DNA from: Octopus vulgaris
Lineage: Eukaryota
NCBI GenBank assembly: GCA_951406725.2
Contig: OX597836.1
Coordinates: 5,952,001 to 6,016,000 of the forward strand
Length of the DNA: 64,000 nucleotides
Reading direction: 5' to 3'
Of this stretch, positions 1,921-49,211 are shown piece after piece. The stretch's first letter is position 1. The number at the start of each line of letters is the position of its first letter. The position numbers were made by a program, and so were the translations under genes. The notes below the pieces were generated by a model. That model made no database searches. It was given only the letters and a program-made list of their open reading frames with translations, and was not told the DNA's origin.

Positions 1921-2104
1921 TGATATATCGCTAACCACAACACACATTCTTTTCTCTTCCTGTTTCTTTCTGTGTTCCTTTCTGTGGTAGAGCGTAGGCT
2001 CGAAACGTTAAAGACTTTTTCAACTCCCGAGAGTTATACTAATATATCTGTTTGTTTTCTACACCACCTGTTTTCGCCTTTTGTTGTTCTTTTTTGTGAG
2101 TTCT

Positions 2105-16534: not shown

Positions 16535-16905
16535 TTACTTTCTGAGTCCAAATTCGTCCAAGGTCGGCATTGCCTTCCATCCTTTTTGGGATCAATAAAA
16601 TTAATATCAGTTGCACCCTGAGGTCGATATAATTGACTCAGCCCGTCCCTAAAACTGCTGGCCTTGTGCCAAAATTTGAAACCAAATTGTAAACATGTCT
16701 TAAAGACATTTGTTGTTAGGTTGTTTGTAAACATTAATCGACATTGCCTTCCATCTTTTTAGGGATCGATAAAATAAATAGTTGAACTCTAGGGTCGATG
16801 TAATCGTCTTAGCCCGTCCCTAAAACTGCTGGCCTTGTGCCAAAATTTGAAACCAAATTCTAAACATGACTTAAAGACATTTGTTGTTAGGTTGTTTGTA
16901 AACAT
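16535..16905 (+). mobile_element. SINE family A 3' part plus flank, tandemly duplicated (period about 171-174 bp)
   Basis: 16568-16734 repeats at 16742-16905. Confidence 0.85.
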
Positions 16906-17424: not shown

Positions 17425-17710
17425 GATTATGTAAATCGTTTACAATGGGCGGATAAGTGCCTGCAACTTGTTTGTTATTATCACAACGTTTCCGCTGATG
17501 TACTCTCCAGCCTTCATCAGGTGTTCTGGTGGAGGTTTGAACCCAACCCTTTATTTGACTAATGGGGACACACTGTTCTCATTCCTAAGCTATGTTGCTT
17601 ATGTTATTTTACTGTTGATATTATTTTTTCAAGTCTCTGCCTGGGATTGAACTCAGACTCTGAGGGTTAGTAGCCCGCAATCTTATCCACTACGCTATAT
17701 GCCCGTGGGC
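17425..17710 (-). mobile_element. tRNA-headed element carrying a hammerhead ribozyme motif (SINE/retrozyme-like)
   Basis: Minus strand: A box TAGCGTAGTGG, anticodon-like arm gggctactaaccc, B box GAGTTCAATCCC (17631-17710), A-rich linker with no T4 run, then HHR motif at 17482-17523. Confidence 0.75.
17482..17523 (-). ncRNA. Minimal type-I hammerhead ribozyme motif
   Basis: cac-CTGATGA-A-GGCTG-gagagtacat-CAGCG-GAAA-C-GTT-gtg; canonical core, palindromic AACGTT helix III, one mismatch at the base of stem II. Confidence 0.7.
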
Positions 17711-17753: not shown

Positions 17754-17795
17754 CACCTGATGAAGGCTGGAGTGTACGCCAGCCGAAATGTTGTG
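17754..17795 (+). ncRNA. Minimal type-I hammerhead ribozyme motif
   Basis: cac-CTGATGA-A-GGCTGG-agtgtacg-CCAGCC-GAAA-T-GTT-gtg; perfect 6-bp stem II. Confidence 0.72.
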
Positions 17796-17834
17796 ATAAC
17801 AAACAAACGAGATGAGGACAAATATCCGTCCATT

Positions 17835-19670: not shown

Positions 19671-20281
19671 TACAAAAGTGAGAGAGAGTCCGTGTGAGTT
19701 GTGTGTCTGCGTGTGTGTGTATGTGGTTGAAAAAGAGAAGTAGTAAAAAATATTAGATGAAAATCGACAAAAATTTACTAACTGTCAAAATAATATCATA
19801 AGTTTAAGTGCAAACTTAAACACACGTACACACACATAAACACACACATTCACACACACACACACACACAATGTTATGTTTTTGTTTGTTTTTTGTTGTA
19901 GATTTTTCTTTTTGTTGTTCTTGTTGCTGCGATGACACTATGTTCTTCATTCCATTTCCTATTATATTCCAAATCTTCCATATTATCGTTTTCTTCTTAT
20001 ATCGTGTTGTTTATCAATTTTCCAGTATTTCTTTGAAATACCTAACACTTACACAAACACTTCACATCTTTACACACGCACACACATTTACATATATACA
20101 TACACGTCTCCGCACGCATACACGAGCTCTTTCGCAGACATGCGCATGGGAAAATGATAGCTGACCTCATAAATTCTGATATGGCGTACGTTAAAGGAAG
20201 GAAAACTGTTGGAATTAAATCTAAGTTACGGTTTCTATTCTGAAGGTAGGCAGCGAAAGAACGAAAACACACGCACGCACG

Positions 20282-20326
<45 letters not shown>

Positions 20327-20352
20327 GCACACATACATACATATATATATAG

Positions 20353-20562
20353 ATGTGACCTCGTCTGTATCACTAGCGATTTTTTCCCCTGTCTTTCCTT
20401 CTCGGGATCTTTCCTTCTCCTATGTTTCCGACGAAGAGCTCCGCTCGAAACGTCAAACCCTCCTTCTTCCCTTCTTTCCTGAGCGTCCAATAATACTTTA
20501 TTTGTTCCACGTCCTTGCGTTGTTGTTTTTTTATTTTTGTTTTCTTGTTTGGATTAACTTTA
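20353..20562 (+). mobile_element. HHR-bearing short element, diverged relative of family D
   Basis: Shares agagc..gctcgaaacgt and downstream ttcctgagcgt..taatac with family D; lies between (TA)n and (TAGA)n. Confidence 0.65.
20424..20458 (+). ncRNA. Minimal type-I hammerhead motif with GUC site
   Basis: gttt-CCGACGA-A-GAGC-tcc-GCTC-GAAA-C-GTC-aaac; stem I gttt/aaac; U4C core variant. Confidence 0.65.
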
Positions 20563-20565
20563 TAT

Positions 20566-20656
<91 letters not shown>

Positions 20657-20963
20657 TACACTATCATACAGACAATTGATAAAAACTTGCTATGTTCAGT
20701 ATAAAAATGGGCGTTGTGGTCCTGAGATGTCTTCGAACTTTAACTCCGAATTCTTCGTCTAGGTCTACGCCTACGGTGTCAAAAGTGGAAATTCGAAGCA
20801 AGCAGATATGGAAGTAGTGATGCAGATAAACACAATTTGGCCTGACATCTATATAGACACACATAGAGACCTATACAAATATATATATACACAAAACTAA
20901 AACGTATAAAACTAATTTATACGTATACATATATACAAATATATTTGCATCGAGCTTAAAAAC

Positions 20964-22190
20964 TGTTGGGTTGGCAAGAAAGTAGTTTCGTCTTTCGCAA
21001 ATCGACAGAGTTACGATTTTTTTGAATGACTTTTGTCAATGTTATAATTTTTTTTTTTCCTTTTGACATTTGATAGCCGTTATTTTTAGCTTACTTTAGA
21101 AGCAAATTGCGCGTAAATAATTGGAGTCCAAAAACGAACATTTTCGCCATATTTTAATTTTTTTTATTTCGGTAAAAAGGAAGAAAGCTGCTGAGGCTCA
21201 CAAAGAGATATATGAAGTGGATGGTGATGATTGCTTAACAGAATGCACACGTCAGAAATAACTTTAAAAATTCCATTCTGGACATTTTTCACTCAAAGAT
21301 GATCAATGTTCAGGTCGACCTATTGAGGTTGATGAGGACCGAATCAAAGCCATAATTGAATCTGATTTTCATATAACCGTGCGAGAGAATGCAGAGAGGT
21401 TAAACGTATCACACACAACAATTGAAAATCACTCGAAAATCACTCGAAATGTCTTGGACTTGTTAAGAAGATCGATATTCGGGATCTACCTAAAAAGAGG
21501 TTCACTTAAAACAACGAATCGATATTTGCGATAGGCATCTCAACGCAATGAAATCGACCTTTTTTTTAAACAAATCATTATTGATGATGGAAAATGAATT
21601 TTCTACAATAACATCAATCGAAAACGATCATGGTCCCAAGCGTAATGAACCAACACAAACCACATTGAAAGCTGGTTTGCATCGAAACAGGTCATGTTGT
21701 CAATTTGATGGAATTACAAAGGTTTTGTGTATTCTGAGCTGCTTCCAAGGAACGAAACGGTGAATTCAGAAGTTTGCTGTCAACAACTAATGAAACTGGA
21801 GGAAGCAATCAAACAAAATGAGCCAGAATTGGCAAATCGTAAAGGAATAGTGTTCCACAATGACAACGCTAGAGCACACAGGTTTTTGCTAACAGGTGAA
21901 AAATTATTGGAGATTGGTTCGGAAGTGATGTCAGATCTACCATATAGTATGACCTTACGCCATCATATCAGATTACCATTTATTTCAAAGTTTGCAAAAT
22001 TCTTTGAATGGTAAAACTTTCAACCAGAAATCACACATGCTCCAGTTTTGGGCTGATAAGAACCAGAGGTTCTCTGAGCGCAGAATCATGAAGTTGTCAG
22101 AAAGATGGCAAAAGGTCATCGGACAATATGGAAAATAAATAATTGATTAAAGCTCATTCATTATATGAAAAATAACACTTTTATTTCACC
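20964..22190 (+). mobile_element. Mariner DNA transposon, decayed; right TIR lost
   Basis: Left TIR-like ttgggttggcaagaaagtagtttcg followed by transposase remnants; 3' end runs into a SINE C2 fragment. Confidence 0.9.
21121..22150 (+). pseudogene. Mariner transposase pseudogene (frameshifts and stops)
   Basis: Translates in pieces to EHFRHIL..KAAEAHKEIYEV.G..LKDDQCSGRPIEVDEDRIKAII (HTH region), RKRSWS, ELLPRNETVNSE..CQQL, RKGIVFHNDNARAH (HDNARPH motif), LPYS..PSDYHLF (YSPDLAPSDY motif). Confidence 0.92.
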
Positions 22191-30022: not shown

Positions 30023-30330
30023 GAAATTTATAGAAAAACAAAAGACGAAGACAAGTGTATGAACAGCAACAGGTGTATTAGTTTGACGCTCGAGAAAACG
30101 AAAAAGTCTTTTACGTTTCGAGCCTACACTCTTCAACAGAAAGGAATAAGAGAAAATAAACAGAGAGAGAATGAAAAACAAAAACTTGTGGATTTAGCGA
30201 TCAAGCATGGCGACTGGTTGGGAAGAAAAAGTTTTGACAGGAGAGGTAGGACGAAGGGGAGGTAAATGTTTTTCCTTATGTGATGGTGAATGTGGAGGAG
30301 GAAGAATTTGTAATCGGGCATGATGGAAAA
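30020..30330 (-). mobile_element. HHR-bearing family D element
   Basis: Homologous to 1921-2107; 3' end abuts (TA)n; 5' limit uncertain. Confidence 0.7.
30108..30143 (-). ncRNA. Minimal type-I hammerhead-like motif (A6U core)
   Basis: cttt-CTGTTGA-A-GAGT-gtag-GCTC-GAAA-C-GTA-aaag. Confidence 0.6.
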
Positions 30331-41029: not shown

Positions 41030-41427
41030 TGCGAGCTGGTGAGCTGGCAGAAACGTTAGCAAGCCGGGCGAAATGCTTACCGGTATTTCGTCAGCTGTTG
41101 CGTTCTGAGTTTAAATTCCGCTGAGGTCGACTTTGCCTTTCATCCTTTCGGGGTCAATAAATTAAGTACCAGTTACACACTGGGGTCGATATAATCGACT
41201 TAATCCCCTTGTCTGTCCTTATTTGTCCCATCTACGTTTTACCGGTATTTCGTCAGCTGTTGCGTTCTGAGTTTAAATTCCGCTGAGGTCGACTTTGCCT
41301 TTCATCCTTTCGGGGTCAATAAATTAAGTACCAGTTACACACTGGGGTCGATATAATCGACTTAATCCCCTTGTCTGTCCTTATTTGTCCCATCTACGTT
41401 TAGCCCCTTGTGGACAATAAAGAAATA
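41030..41427 (+). mobile_element. SINE family A with perfect internal 162-bp tandem duplication
   Basis: 41077-41238 equals 41239-41400; TSD-like tggtttcttt(a/c)ggtt on both sides. Confidence 0.9.

Positions 41428-48911: not shown

Positions 48912-49211
<300 letters not shown>

What the first reader, a model, noticed from the sequence alone, without database searches (positions are those of the whole stretch)
20424..20458. Sister element shows a compensatory stem I change and a GUC cleavage triplet
Seen: gttt-CCGACGA-A-GAGC-tcc-GCTC-GAAA-C-GTC-aaac. Relative to family D, stem I changes from cttt/aaag to gttt/aaac (paired double change), the stem II loop changes while the stem is kept, A6 is canonical, U4 is C and H17 is C. 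Downstream ttcctgagcgt..taatac ties it to family D. This is the best within-window evidence that the structure rather than the primary sequence is under selection.
Basis: partly seen in the sequence, partly recalled or inferred. Interest (0 to 1): 0.7.

Follow-up and report, generated by a model that had tools for sequence, protein, structure and literature searches.

The report
Penelope retrotransposon hammerhead with altered core

Summary
The motif is exactly as described at 20424-20458. It is a minimal type I hammerhead (min-HHR) variant (U4C) in a 211-bp 5'-truncated end of a Neptune/Nematis-type Penelope-like retroelement (PLE). Intact 6.2-kb tandem units (949-aa RT plus GIY-YIG) carry the motif at every junction; family D is a sister PLE with an A6U core (68% protein identity). 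The class was described in 2014, and the scan noted such variant cores before on other DNA.

The motif is under selection (24/30 identity to D versus 41% at fourfold sites), and two other pairs covary across distant families. The highlighted pair does not covary significantly. Stems II and III are conserved in sequence. GUC-AAAC is a minority form (353 of 7,519). The youngest full-length lineage has a U·U mismatch in stem I (1,467 copies).

No long insertion starts at the predicted cut. Repeats within one insertion are much closer to each other than to other insertions, which fits a circular or re-used template. Cleavage is untested.

The parts
20353..20563 (+). 5'-truncated 3' end (pseudo-LTR tail) of a Neptune/Nematis-type Penelope-like retroelement; both ends approximate
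   Evidence: Homology to longer copies begins near ATGTGACCTCG and ends about 10 nt after TTGGATTAA; longer copies lead back to a GIY-YIG/RT frame
20424..20427 (+). Stem I, 5' strand (GTTT)
20428..20435 (+). Core C3-C4-G5-A6-C7-G8-A9 (U4C variant) plus the extra A before stem II
   Evidence: compared with the published min-HHR consensus
20436..20446 (+). Stem II GAGC/GCTC with a 3-nt TCC loop (G10.1-C11.1 pair)
20447..20454 (+). G12-A13-A14, palindromic ACGT (helix III is predicted to form only between two copies) and C17; predicted cut 3' of 20454
   Evidence: dimer model evaluated
20455..20458 (+). Stem I, 3' strand (AAAC; ATAC in the youngest lineage)
20476..20486 (+). Conserved downstream box TTCCTGAGCGT shared with family D
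20267..20352 (.). Microsatellite flank ((CA)n, then (TA)n) at the 5' junction
20562..20656 (.). TA/(ATAG)n flank at the fixed 3' end
1978..2013 (+). Family D motif copy (comparator; A6U, and A9 decayed to T)
30108..30143 (-). Family D motif copy (comparator; A6U)
49048..49083 (-). Family D motif copy (comparator; A6U)

Best explanation
The motif is a U4C variant of the minimal hammerhead carried in the terminal repeat of a young Penelope-like retrotransposon, and the window holds a truncated, likely inert end-piece; in the parent element it likely cuts slowly after position 17 when two copies pair or the element's protein assists, and the cut ends are likely rejoined (circle or template jump) so that reverse transcription would run through the site and beyond one unit. 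Shown: element anatomy, tandem units, a fixed 3' end 99 nt past the cut site followed by (TA)n, variable 5' ends, purifying selection on the motif, insertions continuous across the site, and repeats within an insertion closer to each other than to other insertions. Inferred: any cleavage, dimer or protein dependence, rejoining. Odds by step: identity about 0.95; cleaves at all about 0.6; cleavage feeds the insertion template about 0.45.
For: All six long loci examined carry the motif at each 6.2-kb junction, around an RT + C-x4-C-x2-C linker + GIY-YIG frame (949 aa where uninterrupted). The anatomy matches the published PLE min-HHR consensus except U4; the Acropora Neptune example is nearly the same shape. 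Motif identity to family D is 24/30 against 118/290 at fourfold sites. Variation follows hammerhead rules (rules recalled): N7 takes all four bases and H17 is U, C or A but G in 0 of 71 rows, while C3, G5, G8 and G12-A14 stay nearly fixed, partly because the search patterns fixed them. Pairs II.3 (28/32 vs 18.0 shuffled) and I.1 (27/32 vs 23.8, p 0.03) covary across families. U4C lowers activity in vitro but a viroid carrying it stays infectious (PMC3088659 passages). Repeats within one insertion differ by 0.67 substitutions per 465 nt against 2.96 between insertions (15 insertions); in six further arrays 0.85 vs 5.5 per 745 nt, and in four family D arrays 0.75 vs 7.3 per 1,105 nt. A cut-and-ligate circle was proposed in PMC4209133.
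Against: No cleavage was observed here. Both young families have damaged-looking motifs: U4C plus a U·U mismatch in stem I, or A6U; A6 changes gave low activity. Nearest-neighbour folding disfavours the active forms: monomer hammerhead-like fold -3.8 vs alternative -8.8 kcal/mol; active dimer -5.9 (+0.7 for the ATAC form) vs best dimer -22.5 (no tertiary or protein terms). 0 of 18 sister and 0 of 8 family D long insertions, picked only by frame length, start at +1, so linear cut RNA is rarely if ever the template. In the Anolis PLE, catalytic mutants inserted normally in vitro and no reads began or ended at the site (PMC11167929). Near-identical repeats could also come from read-through of recently duplicated or gene-converted tandem masters, or from assembly polishing.
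Confidence: 0.45

Rival explanations
1. The motif still cuts slowly, but cutting is a side process (RNA turnover or damping). Insertions are copied from uncut read-through RNA of tandem master loci, and arrays are renewed at the DNA level by unequal exchange or gene conversion.
For: Uncut RNA was the dominant substrate for the Anolis PLE in vitro. Here 17 of 18 and 7 of 8 long insertions cross the site and none starts at it. Weak cores were tolerated in two expanding families.
Against: It needs each master array to be re-homogenised after masters diverge, since within-insertion repeats are about 4 to 10 times closer than between-insertion repeats. 5' ends scatter from -186 to beyond -1,650 and into further units, with no common start.
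Confidence: 0.3
2. The motif is catalytically dead in these lineages and is kept as a sequence-specific signal (protein binding, RT recruitment near the +99 start, or a promoter element).
For: Between D and the sister family, stem II, GAAACGT and the downstream box are invariant in sequence while core positions 4 and 6 changed family-wide. Stem I is mismatched in the youngest lineage. C4 occurs in 11 of 32 A6-core rows.
Against: H17 changes among U, C and A without G (0 of 71) and C3-G8 is kept. Stem II changes sequence with compensation in more distant families, which a sequence-read signal would not predict.
Confidence: 0.22
3. The motif is a chance fold, or a host-domesticated ribozyme acting at this locus.
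For: The fold z-score is only -1.5 and Rfam has no hit.
Against: 7,519 exact copies with control 0 and linkage to PLE frames. Genomic copies decay across the motif, mostly at CpG: 9/575 non-CpG and 11/230 CpG motif cells against 28/828 flank cells (23 of 30 copies scored).
Confidence: 0.03

Closest known systems
Minimal type I hammerheads (min-HHR) in pLTRs of metazoan PLEs (Cervera and De la Pena 2014, PMC4209133; main text parts 1-3 of 4 and supplement parts 1-2 of 3 read)
   Same: Short helix I, extra nucleotide before helix II, G10.1-C11.1, GAAA, palindromic 15.2-16.2 with no helix III, NUH triplet, pyrimidine/U-rich flanks, position in both terminal repeats, thousands of solo truncated copies. 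The Acropora digitifera Neptune example has the same core apart from U4 and a 4-bp helix II ending GCUC.
   Different: All 56 listed representatives have U4 and A6 (by eye). This family has C4, family D has U6, and the youngest lineage has a U·U mismatch in helix I. No cephalopod is in that list.
Neptune/Nematis-type endonuclease-positive PLEs (Craig et al. 2021, PMC8557442; introduction and passages read)
   Same: Single ORF with RT and C-terminal GIY-YIG, two cysteines inside the GIY/YIG interval, Zn-finger-like linker C-x4-C-x2-C, DKG motif, partial-tandem pLTRs, microsatellite (TA)n targets.
   Different: Long low-complexity 3' UTR (about 2.9 kb). Neptune versus Nematis was not resolved, as no named reference proteins were at hand.
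Anolis Poseidon element PAc and its protein-assisted hammerhead (Frangieh et al. 2024, PMC11167929; parts 1-2 of 4 read)
   Same: Hammerhead upstream of a fixed internal point where genomic copies end; insertions continuous across the cut site.
   Different: Different clade. In PAc the ORF starts inside the ribozyme and C3/G8 mutants were tested; here the ORF start lies about 420 nt downstream of the cut site and the core carries U4C or A6U.
Dimer-cleaving hammerhead variants of PLEs (Lunse, Weinberg and Breaker, RNA Biol; only the reference-list entry was seen)
   Same: By its title: small PLE-linked variants that cleave as dimers.
   Different: Text not held, so whether it already lists U4C, A6U or cephalopod examples is unknown.
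Non-LTR retrozymes (PMC7229834 passages; bioRxiv 10.64898/2026.07.22.740005 part 1 of 5)
   Same: Type I hammerhead, tandem arrangement, proposed circular intermediates.
   Different: Retrozymes are short non-coding tandem repeats, mostly with canonical hammerheads; this is the truncated end of a 6.2-kb protein-coding element.

Membership tests
PLE min-HHR (Cervera 2014 consensus) | Core C3-U4-G5-A6-N7-G8-A9 | tested here: not met
   Position 4 is C in the window and in the family majority; all other core letters are met. Filed as a variant, not as a consensus member.
PLE min-HHR (Cervera 2014 consensus) | Extra nucleotide between 9 and 10.1; G10.1-C11.1; G12-A13-A14 | tested here: met
PLE min-HHR (Cervera 2014 consensus) | Palindromic 15.1-16.1 without helix III; NUH triplet | tested here: met
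   ACGT followed by C; H17 is never G in 71 rows
PLE min-HHR (Cervera 2014 consensus) | Short helix I (2-5 bp) | tested here: met
   4 bp in the window; 3 of 4 in the youngest lineage
PLE min-HHR (Cervera 2014 consensus) | Located in both terminal repeats of a PLE | tested here: met
PLE min-HHR (Cervera 2014 consensus) | Self-cleavage as a dimer | not testable with these tools
   Folding energies do not favour the active dimer; no assay possible
EN+ Penelope-like element | Single ORF with PLE-type RT and C-terminal GIY-YIG carrying two Cys and two His | tested here: met
   949-aa frame with DKG, LPKIHK, GVAMGT and YIDD motifs and YCIKCNLC..YVGQT..EH..HF. Pfam RVT_1 (E 5e-4) and GIY-YIG (E 7e-3) hit a 642-aa part but below the curated cut-offs.
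EN+ Penelope-like element | Partial-tandem pseudo-LTRs, fixed 3' end, variable 5' truncation | tested here: met
Neptune/Nematis clades | Zn-finger-like linker between RT and EN | tested here: met
   CSRSRCNTC in the sister family, CSRPRCRTC in family D; definition
Neptune/Nematis clades | RT phylogeny placing it in Neptune rather than Nematis | not tested
   No named reference proteins fetched; the (TA)n target fits Neptune per a passage
Non-LTR retrozyme | Short non-coding head-to-tail repeats each with a type I hammerhead | tested here: not met
   Single 211-bp copy; same-type copies share up to 700 nt upstream and the family leads to an ORF
Rfam hammerhead families | Covariance-model score | tested here: not met
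   0 hits at gathering in the window; no hammerhead at E up to 10 in 20200-20700

The most novel reading that the evidence does not exclude
Two young, expanding Penelope families in this genome run on hammerheads with non-consensus cores (U4C with a mismatched stem I; A6U) that still cut, with help from dimer formation or the element's protein, to make unit-length RNA circles. Reverse transcription round the circle then regenerates the seamless tandem arrays. That would supply genomic evidence and natural tuning mutants for the unproven circular-template model of Penelope transposition.
Probability: 0.3. Interest if true: 0.68.

Novelty: new variant of a known kind. Interest (0 to 1): 0.36.

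Why it matters
The class is known, so the motif itself is no surprise. What it adds is a clean test system for an open question, namely what PLE hammerheads do. This genome holds two intact, very young PLE families whose motifs depart from the consensus at positions 4 and 6, which strict descriptors and Rfam miss. Their insertions never start at the cut site, yet repeats inside one insertion look copied from one template. One cleavage assay and one RNase R/long-read experiment would separate circle-making ribozyme, dispensable ribozyme and dead signal.

Tried and rejected
Rfam: no hammerhead hit.

Expression: no RNA holder listed (20 holders, none on record as RNA, contigs only). Contigs of guessed-RNA runs cover the family motif, mostly with T at position 17, and some bridge the predicted cut (e.g. 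X1 record 3). Contigs cannot show ends, so no conclusion is drawn. The single-copy flanks of this locus were covered only in the large run X15. One contig begins exactly at 20455 behind a TA run; single and uninformative. Contig stops near the site are not read as cuts.

Pile-up of short-copy 5' ends at the cut: the first 100 of 2,524 overlapping rows give 24 loci, one of them not truncated. 1 of 23 starts at +1 and 4-5 at +1 to +3, against about 2 expected if even; the A-run offers microhomology to the TA target; counted by eye; inconclusive.

Downstream box as an inhibitory partner of stem II: predicted at 0.52 in the window copy but 0.08 and 0.17 in the two intact elements, and the box does not follow stem II changes in other families (by eye). 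Not supported.

Retrozyme or SINE reading: rejected.

Discarded outputs: minus-strand loci not re-oriented; structure string out of register; redone. Searches used rows pre-filtered for stem II pairing (L134, L165 and L179 failed that filter; L122 was left out), so (32 of 50 rows; the 18 family D-like rows set aside) is the fair count. Core letters and G10.1-C11.1 were fixed by the pattern and are not evidence there.

Literature: searches found no paper on cephalopod PLE hammerheads or on U4C/A6U in PLEs. The Lunse paper was not held, and supplement file 1 of PMC4209133 and all bioRxiv supplements were not seen; any of them may bear on the novelty of the variant cores.

Full report
1. Observation. 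The motif is present letter for letter at 20424-20458, with C17 at 20454. Three family D copies in the window show CTTT/AAAG, a 4-nt stem II loop and T at core position 6, and the box TTCCTGAGCGT follows both types. The first 30 bases occur 7,519 times in the 2.8-Gb genome, control 0; a relaxed pattern covering both families occurs 36,102 times, control 0. The host is likely an octopus; this is my inference from genome size and repeat content plus unchecked scan notes, as no call names it. Rfam gives no hammerhead.

2. What it belongs to. Copies share about 50-100 nt upstream and end 85-100 nt past stem I at TTGGATTAA plus about 10 nt, then (TA)n. The window copy spans about 20353-20563. Copies with the window's own C-AAAC form include ones sharing up to 700 nt upstream, so this is a truncation product and not a separate short element. 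Walking upstream from long copies reached an RT and GIY-YIG frame at two independent loci; I followed ATAC-type copies to the ORF, not C-AAAC copies. The endonuclease domain is 100% identical at about 100 of the 150 places scored (counted by eye) and 99-100% at the rest, so the family is very young. Six long loci show head-to-tail units of about 6.2 kb: motif, tail, 5' UTR, ORF (949 aa where uninterrupted), about 2.9 kb of low-complexity 3' UTR, motif, tail, (TA)n. [quoted passage not shown] These are the features given for Neptune/Nematis PLEs (PMC8557442). Pfam hits on a 642-aa part are below cut-off. Family D is likewise a young PLE with 4.5-kb units, core CTGTTGA and 67-68% identity over about 725 aa.

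3. Is structure rather than sequence selected? Selection on the motif is clear: 24 of 30 positions match between the two intact elements (counted from the alignment) against 118 of 290 fourfold sites in their ORFs. But stem II and GAAACGT are identical in sequence, and the differences fall at positions 4, 6, 7, 17, loop II and pair I.4. The I.4 swap holds lineage-wide: of 22,960 copies with C or G on both sides, 291 are C·C and 138 G·G. These counts are two lineages copied many times, and the C·C list includes a recurrent small lineage of its own. With near-saturated neutral sites, one double change has roughly a one-in-four chance of restoring a Watson-Crick pair (inference). In 32 A6-core rows fetched from a pattern that excluded the GAGC stem, not filtered for pairing and mostly old single copies of other families, pairing was: II.3 28 (shuffle 18.0, p<0.001), I.1 27 (23.8, p 0.03), I.2 20 (16.8, p 0.08), I.3 17 (17.4), I.4 14 (11.1, p 0.16). 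A 37-row alignment gave a covariation score of 0.396 against 0.238 shuffled and at most 0.241 slid, with stem II pre-filtered. Rows are related, so the p values are optimistic.

4. Of the 7,519 copies, 353 continue C-AAAC and 1,467 continue C-ATAC; in a 30-locus sample 22 keep four pairs and 8 have the U·U mismatch. Every long, young sister-family insertion examined that holds the motif has ATAC. Among the first 100 of 4,720 flank-anchored copies, position 17 is C in 6 and A in 1 (by eye). Copies decay through the core after insertion, mostly at CpG (23 of 30 scored), so selection acts on the source elements and not on copies such as this one.

5. Would it cut? For: the layout matches the min-HHR consensus except U4 (PMC4209133); N7 is free and H17 is never G in 71 rows; a viroid tolerates U4C (PMC3088659 passages). 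Against: published min-HHRs were inactive as monomers and weak as dimers. Here the monomer prefers GACG/CGUC pairing (-8.8 vs -3.8 kcal/mol), which C17 strengthens, and the active dimer (-5.9; +0.7 for ATAC) is far above the best dimer (-22.5). Family D spread with A6U. The Anolis PLE hammerhead cut only with its protein and was not needed for insertion in vitro (PMC11167929).

6. What insertion ends say. 3' ends are fixed at +99 (sister) and +110 (D) from the cut site, so the cut does not define them. Of 20 sister loci picked only for long open frames, 17 cross the upstream cut site, 1 starts at +124, 2 do not reach the stretch, and none starts at +1. Of 16 such D loci, 7 cross, 1 starts at +707 and 8 do not reach. 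Twelve earlier loci, partly chosen as tandems, add 10 crossing and 2 shorter. So templates are continuous through the site: uncut, or cut and rejoined. Repeats within one insertion differ by 0.67 substitutions per 465 nt against 2.96 between insertions (15 of 17 usable; the own partner is uniquely closest in 5 and tied in 7), and by 1.54 vs 5.57 per 695 nt (13 usable). Six arrays give 0.85 vs 5.5 and four D arrays 0.75 vs 7.3. One insertion has U4 in both of its repeats while the others have C4 (L104). Arrays are thus renewed from one unit about as often as lineages split. A circle or a template jump at precise ends explains this simply and was proposed in 2014. DNA-level duplication, gene conversion or assembly polishing could mimic it. 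An unchecked scan note on another genome suggested the same reading before I ran.

7. Mechanism, committed. Tandem loci are likely transcribed through several units. Two motifs likely pair through ACGU, probably with protein help, and cut slowly after position 17; the ends are likely rejoined. The protein likely nicks (TA)n and starts cDNA about 100 nt past the site. Synthesis usually stops early, leaving tails such as the window copy, and sometimes runs past one unit. Shown: anatomy, ends, selection, repeat identity. Inferred: transcription, cleavage, rejoining. Confidence 0.45; rivals are a dispensable slow ribozyme (0.3), a dead signal (0.22) and chance or host function (0.03).

8. Known and new. 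It works like the min-HHR of metazoan PLEs and fails only the U4 consensus letter, so I file it as a variant. The carrier meets the EN+ PLE features tested. Seven paper searches found no report of cephalopod PLE hammerheads or of these core changes in PLEs, but the most relevant paper (Lunse et al.) was not held. Earlier scan notes describe variant-core PLE hammerheads in this and other genomes. Verdict: real, a new variant of a known kind, interest 0.36; the value lies in the family as a test system and not in this copy.

Noticed in passing
window 17478-17523 (-) and 17754-17797 (+): Two back-to-back copies of another minimal hammerhead family with a consensus core, a 6-bp helix II and CAC/GTG stem I, about 230 bp apart; a relative lies in L117. 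Carrier element not identified.
   Followed up: partly
L031:3-1751: A second PLE family (583+ aa open frame with RT, cysteine linker and GIY-YIG above the Pfam cut-off), about 30% identical to the sister family, lies 3 kb upstream of it; an identical fragment lies in L033 in the opposite orientation to the motif copy there.
   Followed up: partly
L036:8955 and 9698 (same place as L022): A long ATAC-type copy and a short T-AAAC-type copy sit in tandem separated by (TA)n: an insertion into another copy's tail, unlike the seamless arrays.
   Followed up: partly
L105-L134, L165-L184: C4 occurs in 11 of 32 A6-core rows (at least one is a sister-family copy) although C4-G5 is a decay-prone CpG; U4C may be old and widespread among this genome's PLE hammerheads.
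   Followed up: partly
L221, L226, L228: A small lineage with loop TAT and a C·C mismatch at pair I.4, possibly an intermediate between family D and the sister family.
   Followed up: no
window 20476-20486: The conserved downstream box is complementary to the 3' strand of stem II plus GAAA; predicted pairing is 0.52 here but low in intact elements.
   Followed up: yes
window about 20980-21500: A high-copy repeat (depth) whose sequence resembles a decayed Tc1/mariner transposase; the resemblance is recalled, not tested.
   Followed up: no
window 16564-16905 and 41077-41401: Two-copy tandems of 171 and 162 bp with related sequence, the second 100% identical between units; probably a SINE-like repeat.
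   Followed up: no
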